Positions 2,025-64,000 of a stretch of DNA of 64,000 nt are shown piece after piece (position 1 is the stretch's first letter; the number at the start of each line of letters is the position of its first letter). Source of the DNA: a virus (taxonomy: Duplodnaviria > Caudoviricetes); IMG/VR virus record IMGVR_UViG_2595698333_000001, positions 38,320 to 102,319 of that record; one strand, given 5' to 3'. The translations under genes and the position numbers were made by a program. The notes beneath the pieces were generated by a model. That model had not been told where the DNA came from. It did no database searches and was given only the letters and a program-made list of their open reading frames with translations.

Positions 2025-2942
2025 TCAGTTGGCGAAGACCGCCATGTCGTCAGGCAGGTCGTCCTCGCCGTCACTGTCGCACCCGGACGAACCTCCGCTC
2101 TCACCCGAGACGGGCAGGAGCGAGGCGTACTCCTCGGCGACGCTGACCTTGTAGCCGTTCTCCGTCAGGGTGTTGACGAACTGACGGACGGCCTCGGTCG
2201 TGCGGTCGAGGACCCAGTCATCGCCGTCGTAGGTACAGTGCGTGTCGTCCCACGACATCTCGCTGCTCAGGTCCTCGCCCTTCGACGAGAGCAGGTTGTA
2301 CGTGTCACCGCTCAGCGTCAGCTTCTGACCGTACTTGTCGCGCTTCGCGCCGGAAATCTGAACCGCGCCGTCGGACATCTTGCCCGCGTGCGTGGCGCCG
2401 TTGACCTCAACGACCACGTCGTCCTCGCTCTCAGGGTAACGGACAGCGAACCGGATGACGCTCAGGGGGACCGACTCGCTCTTGAACGAGTCACGGTCAT
2501 CGGTCGGCGCCGTGCCGGGACCGGGCTTCTCGCTGTTGTCGTGCCAGTTGAACGCCTTGCGGCGAATCTTCCGCGCGGCCTTGCTGTTCAGGCCACCGCG
2601 CGAGTTGTTGATACGAGCGGCGGACGTGACGCGGCCGATGGCGTCACTCGTCTTGATACCCTCGTCAACGAACAGCGCCTTGCCGCTCGGGGAGACGCTG
2701 TCGGGCTTGATGAAGAACCACTCACCCCAGACACCGAACGCCTCGTTGCCCCACCAGGTCGAATCCAGGCGGACGAGAACTGCGTCGGTCTCCTGCATGA
2801 CCTCCTTGACCGCCGCGAGCGTGTCCGGGTCAGCCGAGCGGGTCGCCTCCGCCAGCGCCGCGTCGTCCTCAGCGTCGAGGACCTCGGGGTTGAAGTTGTC
2901 CTGCGCGTTGCCACCGTCGTCCGCGTTCGCGTTCGAGCTCAT
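2025..2942 (-). CDS. hypothetical protein, probable early gene
   Basis: 305 aa ORF with strong GGAGG SD and upstream TATA-like promoter. Confidence 0.8.
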   Translation of the reverse strand: MSSNANADDGGNAQDNFNPEVLDAEDDAALAEATRSADPDTLAAVKEVMQETDAVLVRLDSTWWGNEAFGVWGEWFFIKPDSVSPSGKALFVDEGIKTSDAIGRVTSAARINNSRGGLNSKAARKIRRKAFNWHDNSEKPGPGTAPTDDRDSFKSESVPLSVIRFAVRYPESEDDVVVEVNGATHAGKMSDGAVQISGAKRDKYGQKLTLSGDTYNLLSSKGEDLSSEMSWDDTHCTYDGDDWVLDRTTEAVRQFVNTLTENGYKVSVAEEYASLLPVSGESGGSSGCDSDGEDDLPDDMAVFAN

Positions 2943-3190
2943 CTCTTTTCTTCCTCCGCACTCGGTAGTACATCACCCGGGATAATAAAAGTATGGGAAT
3001 ACCACGTAGCGCGTTGTATGGTTACAACCTCGGAATAGCCCGTACCGCGTCTAACGAAGCAGACGCGGTTCTGAGCGCATGGAGGGTAGCTCCGATACAT
3101 CGTAGGGACCCCGACCGACAAAAGGAGGGATATAACTATGGTGTTCAGACTACCGAGCAATCACACAACGCCCGATACCATAAAAGTATG
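2943..3190 (-). promoter_or_regulatory. tandem promoter unit, copy 1
   Basis: Two ATACTTTTA boxes on minus strand (about 2986-2994 and 3181-3189); shares several blocks with 54909-55138. Confidence 0.7.
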
Positions 3191-3477: not shown

Positions 3478-3950
3478 GCTTCGTCCGGGTTGACTGCCAC
3501 TATGCAGTCGATACGAACGTGCGACTTCATCTCTCCGCTGAGCAGGCCTCCGCGGTCGATGTTGTTGCCGCTTCCCAGTTCGAGGTGGTCTTCCGTCCAG
3601 ATGCTCTCCTTCGCAGGACGCGGCATCTCGAAGCCGGGCAGCTTGCGCACGTACCCAGTTGACAGGTAGGCGTTCTCGTTCGTCGGCGGACCCGTCCAGT
3701 ACAGGACCTCGACGCCGAGCGAGATTTGGTCGAGCGCCTCGTCGGAACTCAGGCATCCACAGGCCTCGTACACCTCGTCCGGGTACTCGCCTGCCGCGGA
3801 AAAGAACTTCGAGTACTGAGGCACCATGCCCGTGTCCTCGTTGACTTCCTCCACGTCAGGGTCCCGGGTCCACTTCGAGCGGTAATCCTCGAAGACGGAT
3901 TTGTCGTAGGTCGAGACCACTTCGCCGTTGACTTCGTATGAGTCACTCAT
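3474..3950 (-). CDS. hypothetical protein
   Basis: MSDSYEVNG..., acidic. Confidence 0.7.
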   Translation of the reverse strand: MSDSYEVNGEVVSTYDKSVFEDYRSKWTRDPDVEEVNEDTGMVPQYSKFFSAAGEYPDEVYEACGCLSSDEALDQISLGVEVLYWTGPPTNENAYLSTGYVRKLPGFEMPRPAKESIWTEDHLELGSGNNIDRGGLLSGEMKSHVRIDCIVAVNPDEA

Positions 3951-4124
3951 GTCTGTTGTCTCCTTGTTGGCGCGGGCGTACACCAGAACGGATATTGACG
4001 CCGGAGCGCAGGGGTCCGTTCCTGGGAGGCGGGCGTCCCTCCTCCGTGTAGTACAACGGCCCCCGAGACCATAATGGTAAGTAGCGGGGTGAAGGTAAAG
4101 AGAAGGCGTGTACCGCGAGGATTC

Positions 4125-5378
4125 TTAGAAATCGAGGACTGACTGACTTTTCGACTCGTACTCTTGCACACTGGAGTCCTCTCCCGTCGCCCAATCCTCG
4201 TAGGCGTTCTTGTCGAGGTCGAGGACCTCAAGTTCGTCTCCCTCAAGACGATGCTGGAGGGCGATTTGCCGACGTTCCTCTACGTCGAGGTCGCGTAGCA
4301 GGTCGAGCATGACATTCTTGAAGTGGATGAACGACCCGCTGAACTTGTATGTCGTCCCGTCGTAGTCCTTGAGCTTACGATAGACGCGAGCAGTCGCGGT
4401 GTCTCCCGATGCTTTGTCTAGGCTGTGCCTGTACCACTCCGGGAACAGGCCCGGGATGTAACCCGAGTACGCTTCGGTCAAACGCACCTCAGGAACCATC
4501 CGTGCGAGCGCACCCGCGTATTTCCAGTACCTGTAGTTTCGAGTCGACTGCGCACGTCCCAACCACTTATCGGCTCGTGCGAGGCAGTCGTAGGCGACTC
4601 CCGCCTCGAGACCTCGGAACTCCTTCGCCACCGCCTGGTCGAGCCAGATAACGAGTTGGTCGGGCGAGATGTTGTTGCCGGCGTACTTGTCGCCACCCAG
4701 GATTTCCGGGATGGCGTCGAACTCTCCTTCGTCCCACTCACGGTCGTCGAAACCGAGCGGAACATCGCTCTCCGCCATCATCTGTAGGTCGTTGATGGCA
4801 GAACGCAGGTCAGGACGCTGAGCGAGGCGTTCCTCGTCATGCTCGTCCAGTTCGACGCCCTCCTTCTCAGCGATTTCTCGAATCTTGGCGGCACGCGACC
4901 GCTTCCCGAGTTTGAAGTCCTCGGAGTTCACCCGATTCTTGATGCCGTCCGGCACGTCATACTCCTCGTTCGCCGTGAGGATAATCGGATTCGCGGGAGA
5001 ATCGAGAGCGTCGTACAGCGGTTGCTTGTTAGCAGCGTGATGCCACCCGTCCACCTCGTCGAGAAGGACGAGTTGACGATTACCGTCCGCCGGCGACGCC
5101 TCGATGCTCGCCGCCATGTCGCGGATATCGTCCGTCTTCCGCGCAGACGAGGCGTTGATTTGATTGAGCGGCATCCCGAGCTGGTCAGAGACGACGTATG
5201 CCGTAGTCGTCTTGCCCGTGCCCGGAGGTCCGACGAGCAACTGCCCCTGGTCACCGGGTTCCCACTCGTCCGCCCACTCACGGATACGCTTGAGAGCGGC
5301 GTTGTTTCCTTGCAGTTCTGAGAACGACTGCGGTCGGTGCTTTTCAACCCAACTGTTTGATGAGGTGTTCTGTGTCAT
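4125..5378 (-). CDS. rfcL: replication factor C large subunit
   Basis: WVEKHRP, GPPGTGKT, INASSAR, LLDEVD, PIILTAN, DLRSAINDLQ. Confidence 0.92.
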   Translation of the reverse strand: MTQNTSSNSWVEKHRPQSFSELQGNNAALKRIREWADEWEPGDQGQLLVGPPGTGKTTTAYVVSDQLGMPLNQINASSARKTDDIRDMAASIEASPADGNRQLVLLDEVDGWHHAANKQPLYDALDSPANPIILTANEEYDVPDGIKNRVNSEDFKLGKRSRAAKIREIAEKEGVELDEHDEERLAQRPDLRSAINDLQMMAESDVPLGFDDREWDEGEFDAIPEILGGDKYAGNNISPDQLVIWLDQAVAKEFRGLEAGVAYDCLARADKWLGRAQSTRNYRYWKYAGALARMVPEVRLTEAYSGYIPGLFPEWYRHSLDKASGDTATARVYRKLKDYDGTTYKFSGSFIHFKNVMLDLLRDLDVEERRQIALQHRLEGDELEVLDLDKNAYEDWATGEDSSVQEYESKSQSVLDF

Positions 5379-54270: not shown

Positions 54271-54309
54271 CGCCTGACGAAGTGACAGGTGGAGGACCAA
54301 CAGGAAACG

Positions 54310-54471
54310 ATGGAATCACTCACCGACGAACCGATGGTCGACCTCGACGTGGACCCGGACACGGGAGAGTTCAGCATCCTCACGGGTGACGAGCTCCTTC
54401 GTGCCCGCTACACTCGGTGGTCGGACAACGACTACGGCGAACAGTTCTGGGACGCGAGGTGTCCTGCATGA
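54310..54471 (+). CDS. FWD-tail microprotein
   Basis: Ends RWSDNDYGEQFWDARCPA. Confidence 0.65.
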   Translation: MESLTDEPMVDLDVDPDTGEFSILTGDELLRARYTRWSDNDYGEQFWDARCPA

Positions 54472-54896
54472 CGCGACTCGTCCTCAGCACAGATGCCTCT
54501 GTGCTCACGAACGGGTCGGTCGGCATCGGGTACATCGTCGAGCGTGTCAGAGACGACGGAGAGCAGGTCGAGATGCTCGTCAAGGAGTGCGAGGATGTTT
54601 CCCCCGACCGACTGGGAAACCACTCAGAGACAGTGCACGAGGCGGAGTACATCGCTGTCGTCCGTGGAGTCGAAGCTGCACGCGAACATCTCGACGACGA
54701 GCGCCTCGTCATCCGGTGCGACAACGGAAACATCGTCTCCCGCGTGAAGGCAGGAAAGGGAATCGGAGACGAGCGTCAGGAGCGTCTCGAACACCACCTG
54801 GAGAATATCGACTGGGAGATTCGAGACATCCCACGTATCCTCAACTCACTCGCTGATTCGCTCTCCAAGCAGGCGTCTCGTGGGAAAGTCCGATAA
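54468..54896 (+). CDS. rnhA: ribonuclease HI-like protein
   Basis: TDAS, AEY.A, RCDN, PR..N..AD.L. Confidence 0.8.
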   Translation: MTRLVLSTDASVLTNGSVGIGYIVERVRDDGEQVEMLVKECEDVSPDRLGNHSETVHEAEYIAVVRGVEAAREHLDDERLVIRCDNGNIVSRVKAGKGIGDERQERLEHHLENIDWEIRDIPRILNSLADSLSKQASRGKVR

Positions 54897-55138: not shown

Positions 55139-55975
55139 ATGGAGTACGAAACCCCCGACGTTGGCAGCATGGTGCGGTACGAATATGACCAGGACCCGGA
55201 GAGCGAGTACGGAGTTGCGCGTGGACGCGGTGAGGTCATGGGCGCGCTTGATGAGGTGGTGGACGTTGACGACAACGGACGCACCGTCAAGATAGACCTC
55301 GAAGCGGAGATGGTGACCATCATCCGTGAGCGTCCGCGTGGTGACACCGACGAGTACGAGTACCCGCTCACCTCGTTCAAGCAGGAGGAGGTCAGCGACC
55401 ACCTCATCCGCGAAGACGACCTGTACGACAACGCGGAGAAGTACACCGACGAGCTCGACGACGTGCAGGGAGCAATCGCTCGCGCCAACGCGGCAATCGG
55501 AGTCGTTCACCGCGAGAGCGATGCTGACTTCATCAGTCAGTACGACGCCTGGAAGGCGGCGGATGTGTACGAGAACGGCATCCAGCAGCGTCTCGACGCT
55601 CACAACGAGAGCGACTACGGTGTGTCCGACCGCGCGACCATCGTCTTCCCGAGTGACGCGCTCGCCTACATCTGGGTCGAGGAAATCTGTGGTCAGATTT
55701 CCGACGGCGCGTGGGAGAATCAGGTCCGTGACTGGGAGCAGTACTACGGAGCGAAGGTCGAAGTCGACGAGGACCTCCGGAACGTTCGCGTTGACGGCGA
55801 CCTGCCCACGCTCGACTTCCGCGGTGAGCTGATGAAGTACGAGGGTCTCGCGGGGCGCATGATGTTCTACGTCGTCGCCTCGGGCGTCAACGAGGACCTG
55901 ACCCGTGCTGACCTGGACGAGCTCATCACCATGCGTCTCCAGAACGGATTCGCTGATTCCCGCGTCAAGGCGTAG
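55139..55975 (+). CDS. hypothetical early protein
   Basis: Strong SD; contains EICGQISDGAWEN motif. Confidence 0.8.
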   Translation: MEYETPDVGSMVRYEYDQDPESEYGVARGRGEVMGALDEVVDVDDNGRTVKIDLEAEMVTIIRERPRGDTDEYEYPLTSFKQEEVSDHLIREDDLYDNAEKYTDELDDVQGAIARANAAIGVVHRESDADFISQYDAWKAADVYENGIQQRLDAHNESDYGVSDRATIVFPSDALAYIWVEEICGQISDGAWENQVRDWEQYYGAKVEVDEDLRNVRVDGDLPTLDFRGELMKYEGLAGRMMFYVVASGVNEDLTRADLDELITMRLQNGFADSRVKA

Positions 55976-56048
55976 ACGGCAGGCGGTTTTTCTTTTAACG
56001 GTTCACTGTTCCCATCAGATTTATTTGAGCGTAACTGCTTTTGTGTGT

Positions 56049-56531
56049 ATGGGACGACCAAGTGTTCCGCTTGAAAAGCGGTTCTGGGACAAAGTCGACC
56101 GCGGTGACGAGGATGAGTGTTGGGAGTGGCAAGCAGCAACGGTTCAGGGGTACGGGTTAATTGGTGTAGATGGTACAGAGACAGAGCGTGCTCACCGAGT
56201 CGCGTATCGCCTCGAGGTCGAGGACCCGGGTGACGATTGGGTGCTTCATCACTGCGATAACCCTGCCTGTGTCAATCCTGAGCATCTGTATCTTGGTGAT
56301 GCTGAGGATAATGCACAGGACAGAGAGGAACGTGGACGCAGCACGTATCATACTGGTGAGGAGCATGGAAATACGTCGTTGACAGAAGAACAGGTTGCTC
56401 GTATCAAATGGTTGGTCGAGAATACTGCTCGGACAAACGTTTCCATCGCTGATGAGTACGGGGTATCGGACAGGACGATAGGTAATATAGCGTCTGGTGC
56501 GACGTGGGCAGGCGTTTCTCCCAAGAAATAA
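56049..56531 (+). CDS. HNH homing endonuclease with C-terminal HTH
   Basis: RFWDKV..CWEW..GYG..AHRVAY..VLHHCDNPACVNPEHL. Confidence 0.9.
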   Translation: MGRPSVPLEKRFWDKVDRGDEDECWEWQAATVQGYGLIGVDGTETERAHRVAYRLEVEDPGDDWVLHHCDNPACVNPEHLYLGDAEDNAQDREERGRSTYHTGEEHGNTSLTEEQVARIKWLVENTARTNVSIADEYGVSDRTIGNIASGATWAGVSPKK

Positions 56532-59620: not shown

Positions 59621-59718
59621 ATCGTATCATGTGAGCGTCGGATAAAATACTCGCGTCCTAAGAATACTCGCACGTCTGGATACGGAGGTACAGGTACGGA
59701 GAGGAGTGATACGCACGT

Positions 59719-60048
59719 ATGACGACAGCACTGCTACTACTCGCCGCTCACCTTCTCGGTGACTTCCCGCTACAACCGAGATGGATGGCGCGAGAGAAAA
59801 TAGATGACGTGGGCGTTCGGTTCGTTCATGTCGTCATCCATGCACTCTTGGTAGTCACGTTCCTCGAACTATCAGGGGTAGGTCCGGGCATACCTTCGCC
59901 CTTCTACGGTGCCTACACAGCGTCACACTTCCTCATCGACTCGCGTCGGTGGGTCGAACCTCGAGATGACTTCCCGACCTGGCACTACGTCGTTGACCAG
60001 GTCCTGCACGTCACAGCAATCGCCTGGTGCGGGGTGCTCTTCCTGTGA
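59719..60048 (+). CDS. DUF3307-like membrane protein
   Basis: AHLLGDFPLQ, H...H, SHFLID, DQVLH. Confidence 0.8.
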   Translation: MTTALLLLAAHLLGDFPLQPRWMAREKIDDVGVRFVHVVIHALLVVTFLELSGVGPGIPSPFYGAYTASHFLIDSRRWVEPRDDFPTWHYVVDQVLHVTAIAWCGVLFL

Positions 60049-62582
60049 AGGACCCAGAGGAGTTCACGTTCGAGGAAAAGATGGAGTCGTGGGAGACGAG
60101 CGCCTACGTGACTGTCGGTGTCCCTCACTACTACCTGCCTGCGACTGAGATGGACCCTGAAGTGAACGATGGCGTGACTGAACTGAAGGCGCCCATCGGT
60201 ACGCGCGAGCAACTCGCAGGTGCATGGTACGGTCATCGAGCGACGACGTTCTGGAACGAGAGGTTCGCTCATGTCTGATGGCATCTCGAGACGCGAACTG
60301 AAGAAAGCAATCGAGGAGGCGAGTGAGAATATGGCTCGTTCAGCGTGGCAGGACGCGACTATCAGCGTCTCGAAGGATACGCATGACGCCTTACGGAAGG
60401 AAGCAGGTCTCGACCCGTCACATCCGGGGTATGAGTGGGACGATACCCGCTCCAACGAGTTCTGGGACAGGAGGATGCCATGAGCACCGTCGAAACGGAC
60501 CTCAACGACCCAGAGAAGTTCTCGTTGTACGCCCACTGGTCGTCGCCTACGGTGTACGGGACGCGGGAATCGAGACAGGAGCAATTCTGGAGTCAATACC
60601 TCGAGGTGACGCCATGGTGACGCCGAACGACAAGCATGACCTGTACTACTGTCGTCAGTGTGTCGCGCTATATCACTGCGGCTCGTCGCGCATGATGGAG
60701 GAGGAGCATATGGCAGAGGAGCATCCAGGCTACCCAGGCAGTTGGGACCACTTCGAGTACGAGATGAGAGATTTCCAAGAGCGATTCTGGGACGCATACG
60801 GTGAACGAAGATGGTGAGAACATACGGCGGTCGAGAGGCAGAAGGAGCGCAAGGAGCGACGTTCTCGCCTGAGATGTCCGAGATTATCTACTGGCAACTC
60901 ATCCGCGAGGACAAGTTCTGGGACAGGTACATGGATGACCTGGAAATCGTCCTCGACGTGAAAAGGAAATACGACCGATTATGATGACTTACTACTGCCC
61001 GGCGTGTCGAGAATCGTTCCGCTTCGGGCACATACACGCGAAGCAGAAGGCCGCAGAGCACATGATGGAGCACGAGGAGGACGTGCGCGACCTCATCACC
61101 ATGTCCCCGAAGTCGTGGCTGATGGAACGTCTCCGTGAGGAGCGATACTGGGACGAGAGGTGGAGCGATGAGTGATGAACTGGGAGTCCCCGACGGTGTT
61201 GAGCGTCAGTACAAGGTCGGACAGGACGATAAATCACTCCCACCGTCGATATGGTTGTACGACGCCGTTGACCGTCAGAGACTCGAAGCGCGACACGTCT
61301 ACTGGTGCGACAACTACATCAGTGAGTTCTGGGATGGGAGGTTGGACGCATGAAGACAGACAAAGCGTACTGTCGCCTGTGCAACTCGACGACACCCGAG
61401 AACAACTTCGGTCATGCAAATGATGAGCACTTCGGACGCAAACCTGAGATGTCCAACCTGCTTTCCATGTGGTATAGCGACGAACACGCAGGCCCACAAC
61501 GAGCGGGATACTTCTGGGCGTGGAGGCTCAGCGATGACTGACTACGACCTGCATGAGAACGTTGACTTCTCCTACATGGTCGACAACGACCAGGTGCCTG
61601 TGCCGTTCGAGGCAACCGTCGGGCACTCGGTGTATGAGCACTGGGTGTCAGTCGAGATGGGGCATATCCTCGTGCCGCGTGTCGAACGATTCTGGGACTG
61701 GAGGCTCGACGATGTCTGAGCAATCGTTCGTTGACGAGGTACGCGAACCTGAGACACCGTCTGCACTCGCGGAAATCATGCAGAGGCGTAGCCTCGAGAA
61801 CATCTTTCTCGCGTGGCAACCTCGGCGTGACGACTTCTGGAGGTGTTACTGGGATGCCAAATGCGAATAAGCTCACGCCTCGATGGTGGTGGTGGCGACG
61901 CGAGCATGAGGAATCGTTCTGGGACTCGTGGGTGCATGCATGACGTTCTACTGTCGTCAGTGCCAGGCAGTCGTCGAGGAGACAGGAGCGTCCTACGACG
62001 ACGTGCAGGTAAAGCACTCGGTCATCGAGCATGACGGTGACGACGTTATCCTCGTCGGCACGCAGTGGTTGCAGAACGAGTGGGACCTCCTCGAGAAGCA
62101 ATTCTGGGACCGATGGATGGGAGCATGACTCCTGAGGAGAAACGGCATATGTGGCTTCGGCTGCACTGGGACGTACCTCCCACGACCTCGCGTAAGAAAG
62201 AGTTCTGGGAGCGATATATGAGGACGCGACGATGAACCTTGAGAGCATCTACGGCGAGCATGGACTCGTCCTGAAGGAGACACCGTGCGGGTATGGCGTC
62301 GGCGCGCACGTCACCGAGTACATCGCTACGGAGAACAACTTCCTCGACCGATGGGTGAGTGTATCATCTCTCGGCAGGCGACAGTCATCGTTCTGGGACA
62401 GTCGACTCGGCCAAGAGTGACGTATGATAGGAGACATACCTGACGACGTTGTTGACTACGCTATAGGTTGGTATCAAGGAGTTGTCGGCAGTAGCATGGG
62501 TGCTTGCGTGTCTGGGTACTGGGTAGTAAACCACCAAGAGACGTTCTGGGACGAACGTTTAGGAGGTCGTAGGGGTAAGTGA
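60045..62582 (+). other. array of 15 FWD-tail microproteins (60045-60278, 60271-60483, 60480-60620, 60614-60817, 60811-60984, 60981-61175, 61168-61353, 61350-61541, 61534-61719, 61712-61870, 61854-61943, 61940-62128, 62125-62235, 62232-62420, 62424-62582)
   Basis: 29-77 aa ORFs with overlapping or abutting stops and starts, each with [F/Y]W near the C-terminus. Confidence 0.85.
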
Positions 62583-62586
62583 AGAC

Positions 62587-63144
62587 ATGGACATCTCTCA
62601 GCGTCAGTTTGAGCTTCTGAAGGGTATGTTGATGAGCGACGGGTACGCGAACGAGGTTGGTCGCATGGAGTGGAGCATGATAAATCGAGAGTTCATGGAA
62701 TGGTTCGACGAGCAACTCGGCGACCTCAGTCCTGGCGTGCGAGATATAACGTCTCAGACGACAGCATACGACGAAGACGAAGGTCGTCTGTTCAAGTCGG
62801 GTACTCGTGAGCATCCTGACCTCGAACGGTTCTCTGAGTGGTACACATGGCCTCGTCGTAAGAAGCAGTTCCCATCTGACCTCACACTCACTCCTACGTC
62901 GTTGAAGATATGGTACGCAGGCGACGGGTGTAAGCGAGAACCAGAAGGTAGCGTGCGTCCGACTGTCGTCATCTCGAACGCCATGTCCATCGAGGATAAG
63001 GAACCAGCAGTCGATGCTCTTGAGCAGGAAGGACTGACGCCGACGATTGACGACAACGAGTTTCGCTTTGACGTGGAGACGAGTGAAGATTTCTTTGACT
63101 ACGTAGGAGAGCATGTGCCTGGGTTCGAGTACAAGTGGCCATGA
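62587..63144 (+). CDS. LAGLIDADG homing endonuclease
   Basis: LLKGMLMSDG, WYAGDG, PGFEYKW; paralog of 53570. Confidence 0.82.
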   Translation: MDISQRQFELLKGMLMSDGYANEVGRMEWSMINREFMEWFDEQLGDLSPGVRDITSQTTAYDEDEGRLFKSGTREHPDLERFSEWYTWPRRKKQFPSDLTLTPTSLKIWYAGDGCKREPEGSVRPTVVISNAMSIEDKEPAVDALEQEGLTPTIDDNEFRFDVETSEDFFDYVGEHVPGFEYKWP

Positions 63145-64000
63145 TTCTCCCTACTTAAACGGTATAAAATATAGCAGGCGCACAGGTGCTGTCTCTGACG
63201 ATGGCGCGCAGCGCCGATACATCGTAGGCACCACGGACGGGAACGCAGAGAGCAACCGATGCTCTTCGTCTCTCCGCACGTCTCCATCAACGGTGTCCAC
63301 AGGAGCATGAACAGGGCCATCAACAGGTACATCGAGAACAACACCAACGGGTACGACGAACGCATGAGACACCACAGAACAGAGAGATAGGGCAGAATAT
63401 GGGACAGTACACGTATTCTCCTGTTCTCTGGGGGCGCTCGCTGAGCACTAGACCTCGAGAACGTGCCTGGGTACCCGGGCGTACACGTCGAACAGCTTGA
63501 TTTCCCTCGCCACCCATCTCTGCCTGGAGAACGGCGAGAGACGCCGCCGAGACCACGCAGACGTCCTCCACGTCGAGACCGGTTTCCCCCTGGTTTTTCG
63601 GGGTTGGTGCGCACGGGGAGCTTGATTCCTGCACGTCCTATCTACCACCCAGAGAGCGGGGTATCTGCCGGGGTCTCCACGTTGTCTCTCGGCCATGGGA
63701 GAACGGCGTAAGAGGCGATTCTCGAGGGCAGGTCCGACGATGAGGTTTGATTCTCTACGTGCGAGAATCTCTGCTGTCTCCACGTCAGAGACCGGGGTAT
63801 ATGCAGGGTATCTGTGTGTCTGCTACAGAGGGATTTCTGCTGTGCTGCTGATGCTGCTGTGCGACGACGACGTCTCCATGAACAGGTAGCAGGAAGTCTC
63901 ACAGACGGGGTTCTCCACGCGGAGACACAGAGAGGATTCTCGAACGTGCGCGACGATGGACCCTTCTATTCCGAAATCTCCCCGAACCGGATATTTAGAT
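63145..64000. repeat. largely non-coding region with short dispersed repeats
   Basis: CTCCACG(T/C) at 63566, 63675, 63778 and 63913; GGGTAT(C/A)TG three times; no convincing ORF. Confidence 0.45.

What the first reader, a model, noticed from the sequence alone, without database searches (positions are those of the whole stretch)
60045..62582. Array of 15 closely packed microproteins with variable bodies and a shared C-terminal FWD tag
Seen: 15 consecutive 29-77 aa ORFs. Several are too short for the ORF track or are hidden inside longer calls. Nearly all overlap their neighbour's stop/start. The N-termini are unrelated (some are CxxC...H zinc-like). Every one ends with a similar motif, often W-x(6-7)-[F/Y]W[D/N/E/S/A/R]-x-[R/Y/W]: WYGHRATTFWNERF, WDDTRSNEFWDRRM, RQEQFWSQYL, FQERFWDAYG, WQLIREDKFWDRYM, REERYWDERW, WCDNYISEFWDGRL, RAGYFWAWRL, RVERFWDWRL, WQPRRDDFWRCY, WRREHEESFWDSWV, WDLLEKQFWDRWM, RKKEFWERYM, RQSSFWDSRL, WVVNHQETFWDERL. 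The motif is always in frame and shows conservative swaps (F>Y, D>N/E), which points to protein-level selection. Inference: a modular adaptor or effector library in which a common helix docks on one partner (host or viral hub, protease, membrane DUF3307 protein or capsid) while variable heads hit different targets, such as defence systems. The recurring TTCTGGGAC plus SD could also allow cassette shuffling. I know of no described system like this.
Basis: partly seen in the sequence, partly recalled or inferred. Interest (0 to 1): 0.9.

Follow-up and report, generated by a model that had tools for sequence, protein, structure and literature searches.

The report
Trp-helix microgene arrays in a halovirus
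A virus of salt-loving archaea carries a run of 15 overlapping tiny genes whose proteins share one tryptophan-rich helix near their ends, and the DNA that encodes this helix is also where gene cassettes are gained, lost and swapped between related viruses.

Summary
Window 60045-62582 holds 15 overlapping ORFs of 29-77 aa. 14 of 15 have [FY]W in the last 15 residues; residue shuffles give a mean of 0.97 and a maximum of 6. The genome (G000) is a 102-kb Druskaviridae-like halovirus.

A motif profile finds 24 copies, all at the two genome ends. It finds 15-18 in HCTV-5, HCTV-1 and HCTV-16, 0 in five other haloviruses, and only chance-level hits in five Haloarcula genomes.

The motif is selected at protein level:
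- Arg at -4 uses five codons.
- TTC and GAC use matches the background.
- Synonymous divergence is the same inside and outside the motif, with dN/dS about 0.3.

The codons after FWD also carry the next gene's Shine-Dalgarno sequence. In 5 of 7 cassette indels between close relatives, the breakpoints are direct repeats of this motif-SD DNA.

My reading is a lineage-specific terminal multigene family that evolves by unequal recombination at a translated boundary repeat. The helix is probably a shared interaction module, but its partner is untested. This scan reached the same reading earlier on another genome (e1-6203246). Databases list the proteins as unrelated orphans. Novelty: new variant of a known kind.

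The parts
59640..59652 (+). A/T-rich TATA-like box (GGATAAAATACTC) in the 98-nt gap between the divergent dCTP deaminase gene and the array operon. It is the only obvious promoter-like site ahead of the 16 co-oriented genes.
   Evidence: Read from the sequence. That it is a promoter is inference and was not tested.
59719..60048 (+). First gene of the operon, a DUF3307 membrane protein with no FW motif.
   Evidence: Pfam PF11750, E 4e-15. Present in HCTV-5 and absent from the HCTV-1 and HCTV-16 arrays.
60045..60278 (+). G01, 77 aa, tail ...AWYGHRATTFWNERFAHV.
   Evidence: Orthologs in HCTV-1 and HCTV-16. The cassette is absent from HCTV-5, with the junction at the start codon.
60271..60483 (+). 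G02, 70 aa, tail ...EWDDTRSNEFWDRRMP.
   Evidence: 25.6 bits. Orthologs in all three relatives.
60480..60620 (+). G03, 46 aa, tail ...RQEQFWSQYLEVTPW.
   Evidence: The cassette is absent from HCTV-5. The indel is bounded by a 9-nt GAYGCCATG repeat at the two start codons.
60614..60817 (+). G04, 67 aa, a CxxC...H...H zinc-finger-like head plus ...FQERFWDAYGERRW.
   Evidence: phrog_25102, unknown function. Orthologs in all three relatives.
60811..60984 (+). G05, 57 aa. The motif is internal (…IREDKFWDRYM) and 22 codons before the stop.
   Evidence: phrog_29741.
60981..61175 (+). G06, 64 aa, a C2H2-like head plus ...REERYWDERWSDE.
   Evidence: In 8 homologs the Cys/His ligands and ERYWDERW are invariant. 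The AF2 model shows a beta-beta-alpha unit plus helix 44-60, pLDDT 73.8.
61168..61353 (+). G07, 61 aa, tail ...YWCDNYISEFWDGRLDA.
   Evidence: The cassette is absent from HCTV-5. The indel is bounded by a 16-nt CTGGGAYGRGAGGTKG repeat, which is the motif plus SD.
61350..61541 (+). G08, 63 aa, a CxxC...H...H head plus ...RAGYFWAWRLSDD.
   Evidence: phrog_30460.
61534..61719 (+). G09, 61 aa, tail ...PRVERFWDWRLDDV.
   Evidence: The cassette is absent from HCTV-5. The indel is bounded by a 16-nt TTCTGGGMSYGGAGG repeat.
61712..61870 (+). G10, 52 aa, tail ...AWQPRRDDFWRCYWDAKCE.
   Evidence: phrog_22958. Orthologs in all three relatives.
61854..61943 (+). G11, 29 aa, little more than the helix (…RWWWWRREHEESFWDSWVHA). 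This is the weakest gene call of the set.
   Evidence: Profile score 15.6 bits. No ortholog in the three relatives.
61940..62128 (+). G12, 62 aa, a CxxC...H...H head plus ...EKQFWDRWMGA.
62125..62235 (+). G13, 36 aa, basic (pI 10.9), tail ...RKKEFWERYMRTRR.
   Evidence: An unannotated ortholog lies in HCTV-5 (L001 frame 3939-4193).
62232..62420 (+). G14, 62 aa, tail ...RRQSSFWDSRLGQE. It also holds a decayed second motif, ENNFLDRWV.
   Evidence: HCTV-5 gene 162 has a different body but a 34-nt identical tail that starts one base before the TTC codon.
62424..62582 (+). G15, 52 aa, tail ...NHQETFWDERLGGRRGK.
   Evidence: 25.1 bits.
62587..63144 (+). LAGLIDADG homing-endonuclease gene directly after the array. 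It may be a source of double-strand breaks (inference).
   Evidence: Pfam PF03161, E 1.1e-9. HCTV-5 has a GIY-YIG nuclease at the corresponding place.
54289..54471 (+). Outlying family member, 60 aa, tail ...YGEQFWDARCPA.
   Evidence: (22.5 bits). phrog_22410.

Best explanation
The array is the larger of two terminal clusters of a lineage-specific multigene family. The family has about 25 micro-proteins, roughly 15% of the virus's genes.

Shown:
1. 16 co-oriented genes follow one promoter-like gap. They are chained by overlapping stop and start codons and by Shine-Dalgarno-like sequences that lie inside the preceding gene's tail.
2. Each product carries, 5-23 residues from its end, a motif W-x3-[RH]-[EQ]-[ED]-x-F-W-D-x-[RYW]-[LM]. 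The motif is predicted helical and is under protein-level purifying selection.
3. The 10-30 nt of DNA that encode FWD-x-R, the SD and the next start recur at every gene boundary. They are the breakpoints at which cassettes have been inserted, deleted or had their bodies swapped between sister viruses. A recombinant therefore stays in frame and keeps both the helix and the downstream restart signal.

Inferred:
- The clusters are early, host-directed genes, because they sit next to the terminal repeats, outside the replication and morphogenesis modules.
- The invariant aromatic/Arg face (W-8, R-4, F0/W+1, R/Y/W+4, L/M+5) is a shared interaction surface. It would bind one common partner or other family members, while the variable heads (four of them C2H2-like zinc fingers) supply different specificities.
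For: Motif enrichment. 14 of 15 ORFs carry the motif, against a shuffle mean of 0.97 and maximum of 6.

Distribution of profile hits:
- 24 in G000, all at genome positions 2.1-5.4 kb or above 92.7 kb.
- 18, 15 and 16 in HCTV-5, HCTV-1 and HCTV-16, again at the ends.
- 0 of 5 other haloviruses have a hit, including one that infects the same host species.
- Five Haloarcula genomes give 1-3 hits each at E 0.07-2, in frames that look non-coding.

Protein-level selection:
- Among 23 copies, 13 Arg at -4 use 5 different codons.
- TTC in 22 of 23 and GAC in 14 of 16 match the background use of 86% and 84%.
- Pooled pS is 0.49 in the motif and 0.51 in the rest, with dN/dS 0.315 and 0.275.
- In 8 G06 homologs, ERYWDERW is invariant together with the Zn ligands.
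- Across 64 instances, position +4 is R, Y or W in 64 of 64 and W is at -8 in 32 of 64.

Dual coding. Arg at +4 is AGG in 8 of 11 cases, against 6% of Arg codons in the background. 9 of 17 starts have a match of 5 nt or more to GGAGGTGA 4-8 nt upstream, against 10.6% of all positions.

Recombination:
- 5 of 7 cassette indels are flanked by 10-29-nt direct repeats that begin at or inside the FW codons.
- HCTV-16 gp163-165 lie between two 29-mers, and the HCTV-1 allele is a chimera of the two.
- The tails FWDRRLDDERRE and FWDARLTSSREI sit on different bodies in HCTV-1 and HCTV-16.
- Direct-repeat families D1-D8 of the region all centre on the motif.

Helix. AF2 places G06 residues 44-60 in one helix, pLDDT 69-80 over those blocks.

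Physical properties. 13 of 15 proteins have pI 4.2-5.8 and none has a TM-like segment.
Against: - No partner, expression timing or translation evidence was obtained. 'Early' and 'docking' rest on position and conservation alone.
- 2 of 7 indels (G01, G03) break at the start codon rather than at the motif. The left-end rearrangements I inspected also lie at gene borders. Some of the junction pattern may therefore only reflect survival of recombinants that keep genes whole.
- The seven indels come from only two virus pairs. Contigs from run X1 repeat the HCTV-5 state and add no independent events.
- The helical hydrophobic moment of the motif is modest, 0.08-0.40.
- The second AF2 model (G07, single sequence) is of low confidence, pLDDT 48.7.
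- G11 (29 aa) has no ortholog and may not be a gene.
- The profile and the catalogue of 64 instances were built from this family, so counts within Druskaviridae are partly circular.
Confidence: 0.6

Rival explanations
1. This is an ordinary paralogous family. The conserved C-terminal helix would be a structural or self-association element of each small protein (fold core, or homo/hetero-oligomerisation among members) and not a docking tag for an outside hub. Recombination at the repeats would be a passive by-product of having repeats.
For: - Four heads are demonstrable paralogs, so duplication and divergence does occur.
- In the G06 model the helix is part of one compact prediction with the zinc-finger unit.
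- Repeats recombine whether or not that is 'useful'.
Against: - 52 heads fall into 23 groups with no detectable similarity once the motif is removed.
- A helix that packs on unrelated heads would not be expected to keep the same face invariant.
- The 29- and 36-aa members are little more than the helix.
- Self-association could not be tested.
Confidence: 0.25
2. The selected feature is the nucleic acid and the peptide is a by-product. On this view TTCTGGGAC...GGAGG...ATG would be a translational-coupling or restart element, or a dedicated recombination site (attC- or PeSL-like).
For: - The SD of the next gene lies in the +3 to +5 codons. AGG is used for 8 of 11 Arg at +4, against 6% in the background.
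- 5 of 7 breakpoints lie in this DNA.
Against: - Arg at -4 is encoded by five codons, and Glu/Gln at -3 to -1 by GAG, GAA, CAG and CAA.
- Synonymous sites in the motif diverge as fast as elsewhere.
- TTC and GAC frequencies equal the background codon bias.
- The motif is kept where no gene start follows. F lies 15 or more codons before the stop in 19 of 64 instances, including 63-64 codons in a conserved 108-aa protein.
- There is no consensus RNA structure (0 pairs), no Rfam match, and no recurrent inverted repeat at the boundaries.
Confidence: 0.1
3. The FW motif is a nascent-peptide arrest or pausing signal. It would hold the ribosome near the stop codon so that the overlapping downstream start is re-initiated efficiently.
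For: F lies 7-12 codons before the stop in 14 of the 15 array ORFs, a distance compatible with the exit-tunnel constriction. That last point is recalled general knowledge of TnaC/SecM-type peptides.
Against: - The last residues before the stop are not conserved.
- Distances range from 5 to 64 codons across the family.
- The motif also occurs in the last gene of a run and inside a longer protein.
- Nothing here tests stalling.
Confidence: 0.03
4. The ORFs are not genes, and the pattern is a DNA repeat array read by chance in an open frame.
For: - Several ORFs are very short, and 10 of 20 scanned members hit no PHROG.
- No RNA holder was listed. That is not evidence either way.
Against: - dN/dS is about 0.3 over 12 ortholog pairs, with pS about 0.5.
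- Orthologs are kept across two genera and in metagenome-derived proteins.
- Acidic pI is typical of halophile proteins.
- Start/stop overlaps come with SD-like sequences.
- The frame changes from gene to gene while the motif stays in frame.
Confidence: 0.02

Closest known systems
PeSL (promoter-early stem-loop) cassettes of T4-type phage hyperplastic regions, and the similar conserved motif before ORFs in halovirus HGTV-1. Source: passages of PMC3950731. The original Arbiol 2010 paper is recalled and was not read.
   Same: - Runs of small, fast-evolving ORFs of unknown function.
- A short conserved DNA element recurs at each gene boundary and is thought to mediate modular shuffling.
   Different: - Here the boundary element is translated, as the C-terminal helix of the upstream protein, and is under protein-level selection.
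- It holds an SD rather than a promoter, and no stem-loop or consensus structure was found.
- HGTV-1 itself has 0 profile hits.
Terminal multigene families of large linear DNA viruses (ASFV MGF families, poxvirus 'genomic accordions'). Recalled general knowledge; no paper was read.
   Same: - Paralogs cluster at both ends of a linear genome.
- Copy number and content differ between close strains through unequal recombination between repeats.
- A role in host interaction is presumed.
   Different: - This is an archaeal tailed virus.
- Members are only 29-108 aa.
- Similarity is confined to a motif of about 15 residues.
- Genes are translationally coupled in an operon.
Integron gene-cassette arrays (recalled general knowledge).
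   Same: Promoterless small cassettes in one orientation behind a common promoter, each ending in a recombination-prone element, with cassette content varying between relatives.
   Different: - No attC-like imperfect inverted repeats.
- No integrase gene next to the array: the flanks are a dCTP deaminase, DUF3307 and LAGLIDADG.
- The junctions look like homology or microhomology crossovers.
Small C2H2 zinc-finger proteins of archaeal viruses, for example AFV1p06 (PDB 2lvh).
   Same: Four of the 15 heads have CxxC...H-x3-4-H with invariant ligands, and the AF2 model shows a beta-beta-alpha unit. 2lvh is among the Foldseek rows (TMt 0.57).
   Different: - The Foldseek match is not significant (E 4.9).
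- No Pfam zinc-finger family is hit at a meaningful score.
- The FW helix has no counterpart in 2lvh.
- 11 of the 15 heads are not zinc-finger-like.
Short C-terminal docking motifs shared by unrelated proteins, for example PIP-box clamp ligands. An earlier scan note, e1-6242272, proposes a separate ...VLxF-COOH tail in this virus.
   Same: One short conserved peptide sits on otherwise unrelated proteins of one genome.
   Different: - The FW motif does not fit Qxx[LIM]xx[FY][FY]. Position -4 is R/H and there is no conserved Q at -7.
- It is subterminal and helical over about 14 residues.
- No partner is known.

Membership tests
PeSL-type mobile regulatory cassettes | A stem-loop (inverted repeat) at each cassette boundary | tested here: not met
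   RNAalifold on 16 aligned boundaries gives 0 pairs. The 9 inverted-repeat pairs in the region do not recur at boundaries.
PeSL-type mobile regulatory cassettes | An early promoter in each boundary element | not tested
   Only one TATA-like box, ahead of the first gene, was read by eye. No archaeal promoter scan was available.
Integron cassette array | attC sites (imperfect inverted repeats) at cassette 3' ends and an adjacent IntI integrase | tested here: not met
   No recurrent inverted repeats. The flanking genes are a dCTP deaminase, DUF3307 and LAGLIDADG.
Terminal multigene family evolving by unequal recombination (analogy, not homology) | Paralogs clustered at the genome termini | tested here: met
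   All 24 profile hits in G000 lie at 2.1-5.4 kb or above 92.7 kb of 102.3 kb. The three relatives show the same pattern.
Terminal multigene family evolving by unequal recombination (analogy, not homology) | Copy-number and content differences between close strains, with breakpoints in shared repeats | tested here: met
   Seven indels in two virus pairs: 5 are flanked by 10-29-nt motif-SD repeats and 2 by 7-9-nt start-codon repeats.
C2H2 zinc finger (heads of G04, G06, G08, G12) | C-x2-C ... H-x3-5-H ligands on a beta-beta-alpha fold | tested here: inconclusive
   The ligands are invariant in 8 G06 homologs and align across the 4 paralogs. AF2 gives E2-6, E11-15, H20-29 at pLDDT about 74. There is no Pfam hit above cutoff and no significant Foldseek match.
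PIP-box clamp ligand | Q-x-x-[LIVM]-x-x-[FY]-[FY] near the C-terminus | tested here: not met
   Column tallies of 64 instances show R/H/Y at -4 and no conserved Q at -7. The second aromatic is an invariant W followed by D.
Known Pfam / NCBIfam / PHROG family covering the motif | A single profile that matches the members | tested here: not met
   Pfam gives nothing above cutoff for 15 of 15. NCBIfam gives 0 of 10. In PHROGs, 10 of 20 members hit ten different families of unknown function and 10 hit none. A PDB sequence-profile search gives one hit at E 2.3.

The most novel reading that the evidence does not exclude
The FW helix and its coding DNA form one dual-use 'translated cassette boundary'. 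Selection on a docking helix that plugs about 25 different micro-protein heads into one host (or viral) hub keeps a 10-30-nt repeat identical at every gene border. That repeat carries the restart SD and lets co-infecting Druskaviridae exchange, duplicate and delete heads in frame. The result would be a self-maintaining combinatorial library of host-takeover or anti-defence adaptors, a protein-coding counterpart of integron attC or T4 PeSL sites.
Probability: 0.25. Interest if true: 0.8.

Novelty: new variant of a known kind. Interest (0 to 1): 0.6.

Why it matters
- About one gene in seven of these 100-kb haloviruses belongs to a family that databases list as unrelated orphans. Recognising the shared helix gives a single experimental handle (FW>AA, helix pull-down) on some 25 proteins of unknown function at once. 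It may also point to a host hub that archaeal viruses target.
- The mapped junctions show a mechanism by which a translated motif doubles as the substrate for in-frame cassette gain, loss and body swapping. This bears on how virus 'dark matter' genes diversify.
- The published records of related viruses miss or mis-frame some members, so the motif can also guide re-annotation.

Tried and rejected
- Wider relatives by DNA. Two IMG/VR scans for paired TTCTGGGAC were run. Gap 116-146 gave 107 stretches, and only two loci, both of the HCTV-1 record, had 2 or more profile hits. Gap 150-180 gave 101 stretches, and 0 of 89 new loci had 2 or more hits. These exact-codon patterns would miss diverged or low-GC relatives.
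- Wider relatives by protein. G06 and G04 in IMG/VR returned only the HCTV-1 record. G06 in the 5.8-billion-protein set returned 7 clusters. The zinc-finger-FW profile against 1.84 billion representatives returned 4 clusters. In JGI metagenomes 236 pattern matches were found and none confirmed.
- RNA element. Rfam gave 0 matches and RNAalifold 0 pairs.
- Fold and sequence look-ups. Foldseek against PDB gave a best E of 1.7. The PDB sequence profile gave one hit at E 2.3, a plant GST. The ESM Atlas gave unnamed clusters at 0.92-0.93 with a low shared-feature count, so it is a lead only.
- AF2 of G07 without an alignment gave pLDDT 48.7, which is not usable beyond 'one long helix'.
- Expression. 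No RNA holder was listed. One DNA run (X1) was laid. Its contigs show the HCTV-5-like cassette state and add no new events.
- Membrane-helix idea. There are no TM-like segments and the hydrophobic moment is modest, so I did not pursue it.
- HNH link. The endonucleases of this genome begin with RFWDKV..., but the profile does not hit them. I treat this as coincidence.
- Left-end breakpoints. HSP tables were made but the junctions were not classified one by one. The one I traced (G000 position 2591) lies at a start codon.
- Literature. Five searches found no description of the motif. I read passages of PMC8651126 and PMC3950731. The two primary genome papers (PMC3737338, PMC3592136) are not held, and supplements are closed. 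A prior mention there cannot be excluded.


Full report
What is there. The window is the right-hand 64 kb of a 102,319-bp linear virus genome with direct terminal repeats. Its DNA is 92.8% identical to halovirus HCTV-5 (Druskaviridae) over half of 59700-62600. It also encodes PolB, an RFC-like ATPase and a large terminase.

After a leftward dCTP deaminase gene and a 98-nt gap with a TATA-like box come 16 rightward genes: a DUF3307 membrane protein and then the 15 ORFs of the finding (G01-G15). I confirmed their coordinates by walking each frame from its stop. 13 of the 14 internal junctions overlap by 4-17 nt. A LAGLIDADG endonuclease gene follows, and then the terminal repeat.

Is the motif more than chance? 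14 of 15 ORFs have [FY]W within the last 15 residues, and the other has it 22 codons before the stop. In 20,000 within-ORF residue shuffles the mean was 0.97 and the maximum 6. The whole genome has only 125 [FY]W dipeptides in all six frames.

A 19-position profile built from 25 copies in G000 (A1) finds 24 places in the genome, all at 2.1-5.4 kb or beyond 92.7 kb. It finds 18, 15 and 16 places in HCTV-5, HCTV-1 and HCTV-16, again at both ends. It finds none in HF2, HCTV-7, HGTV-1, HJTV-1 or Hardygib1. Five Haloarcula genomes of 3.9-4.6 Mb give 1-3 hits each at E 0.07-2, in frames that read like non-coding translations. The family is therefore specific to this virus lineage among what I tested, and it is not an abundant host motif.

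Protein or nucleic acid? Among 23 copies, F is TTC in 22 and D is GAC in 14 of 16. The genome's own bias is 86% TTC and 84% GAC, so no extra DNA constraint is needed to explain this. Arg at -4 is written with five different codons, and Glu/Gln at -3 to -1 with four.

Over 12 ortholog pairs the synonymous divergence is 0.49 in the motif and 0.51 elsewhere, with dN/dS 0.315 and 0.275. In eight homologs of G06, the block ERYWDERW is invariant together with the Cys/His ligands. There is no Rfam match and no consensus RNA structure. The ORFs are genes, and the motif is kept as peptide.

Across 64 instances in four viruses the pattern is W(-8) in 32, R/H(-4) in 46, F in 61 (Y in 3), W in 64, D(+2) in 45, R/Y/W(+4) in 64, and L/M(+5) in 38. 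The W column is partly fixed by how I picked the instances. The spacing i, i+4, i+8, i+12 puts these residues on one side of a helix. AF2 models G06 residues 44-60 as a single helix behind a beta-beta-alpha unit (pLDDT 73.8). A single-sequence model of G07 also gives one long helix but is of low confidence.

A second code in the same codons. Arg at +4 is AGG in 8 of 11 cases, although AGG is only 6% of Arg codons in the background. With its neighbours it spells GGAGG or GAGGTG 4-8 nt before the next start. 9 of 17 starts have a match of 5 nt or more to the recalled consensus GGAGGTGA, against 10.6% of all positions in the region. Where the tail is longer, +4 is Tyr or Trp and the SD lies further on.

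Cassette dynamics. I compared the right-end arrays of the two close pairs, G000 versus HCTV-5 and HCTV-1 versus HCTV-16, by blastn and printed every indel junction. Of seven presence/absence cassettes, five are flanked by direct repeats of 10, 16, 16, 21 and 29 nt that start at or inside the FW codons and run through the SD. These five are HCTV-1 gene 156, HCTV-16 gp163-165, HCTV-16 gp167, G07 and G09.

For gp163-165 the two flanking 29-mers differ at four positions, and the short allele is a chimera of them. The other two cassettes (G01, G03) are flanked by 7-9-nt repeats at the start codons. Body swaps occur too. G14 and HCTV-5 gene 162 have different bodies, but their sequences are identical for 34 nt starting one base before the TTC codon. 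The tails FWDRRLDDERRE and FWDARLTSSREI sit on different bodies in HCTV-1 and HCTV-16.

Direct-repeat families D1-D8 of the region all centre on the motif. Contigs of one salt-metagenome run show the HCTV-5-like state at the same junctions. These are not independent events. The left-end rearrangements are more complex and I did not classify them.

Heads. With the motif removed, 52 heads from the four right-end arrays fall into 23 BLAST groups. One group is a CxxC...H...H set (G04, G06, G12, and G08 by alignment). Six G000 heads have orthologs in the other genus, but in a different order. 13 of 15 proteins are acidic and none has a TM-like segment.

What it most likely is. It is a terminal multigene family of translationally coupled micro-proteins. 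Its shared helix is selected as protein, and the helix-coding DNA, together with the embedded SD and start, is the repeat at which cassettes are gained, lost and recombined in frame. Those steps are shown. That the genes are early and host-directed, and that the helix is a common interaction surface, is inference from position and conservation. I could not test binding or expression.

Comparison with known systems. The closest analogues are T4-type PeSL cassettes and the HGTV-1 boundary motif (passages in PMC3950731), integron arrays, and the terminal multigene families of ASFV and poxviruses (recalled). The array works like these, but it fails the defining features of PeSL and integrons that I could test: there is no stem-loop, no attC and no integrase.

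No Pfam, NCBIfam or PDB profile covers the motif. PHROGs splits the members into separate families of unknown function.

Five literature searches and passages of two papers gave no mention of the motif. The two primary genome papers and all supplements were out of reach.

An earlier agent of this scan reached the same reading on another genome (e1-6203246). A first-reader note on the left end of this genome (e1-6242262) matches my.

Verdict. Novelty: new variant of a known kind. Interest 0.6.

Noticed in passing
L001 (HCTV-5 record) 2846-3079 and 2962-3057: The HCTV-5 ortholog of G02 (gene 155) has a 1-nt deletion relative to G000. The annotated protein therefore runs into another frame, and the FWDRRMPW tail sits in an unannotated 32-aa frame. 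This is either a sequencing error or a recent pseudogene.
   Followed up: partly
L001 (HCTV-5 record) frame 3939-4193: An ortholog of G13 (…RKEEFWERYMRT) is not annotated. It is hidden under the 5' extension of gene 162.
   Followed up: partly
window 62587-63144: A LAGLIDADG homing-endonuclease gene lies directly after the array. HCTV-5 has a GIY-YIG nuclease at the corresponding place. Either could supply double-strand breaks that drive recombination in the array.
   Followed up: partly
window 62331-62364 (inside G14): A decayed second copy of the motif (ENNFLDRWV) lies 17 residues before the real FWD of G14. This suggests two cassettes fused, or a motif in decay. A left-end protein (L004 4476-4778) likewise has two FW motifs 10 residues apart.
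   Followed up: no
window 55905-56531; genome + 14668 and - 21157: Three HNH endonucleases of the genome begin with ...RFWDKVDRGDEDECWEW. This is an RFWD string like the family motif, but the family profile does not hit it.
   Followed up: partly
L004 5246-5572 (genome left end): A conserved 108-aa member has the FW motif in its N-terminal half, followed by a four-Cys zinc-ribbon-like region. It gives a weak DUF7351 hit (E 7e-4, below the cutoff). Orthologs occur in all three relatives, with F 63-64 codons before the stop.
   Followed up: partly
window 54468 onward (ORF 54417-54896): The outlying member at 54289-54471 overlaps by ATGA the start of a gene whose product begins MTRLVLSTDASVLTNGSVGIGYIVE..., which looks RNase H-like by eye. 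It was not searched.
   Followed up: no
window 63416-64000 and L004 1-585: The same ORFs appear at both ends of the genome (for example METAEILARRESN...), as expected for the direct terminal repeat. The array ends about 830 bp inside the right repeat.
   Followed up: no
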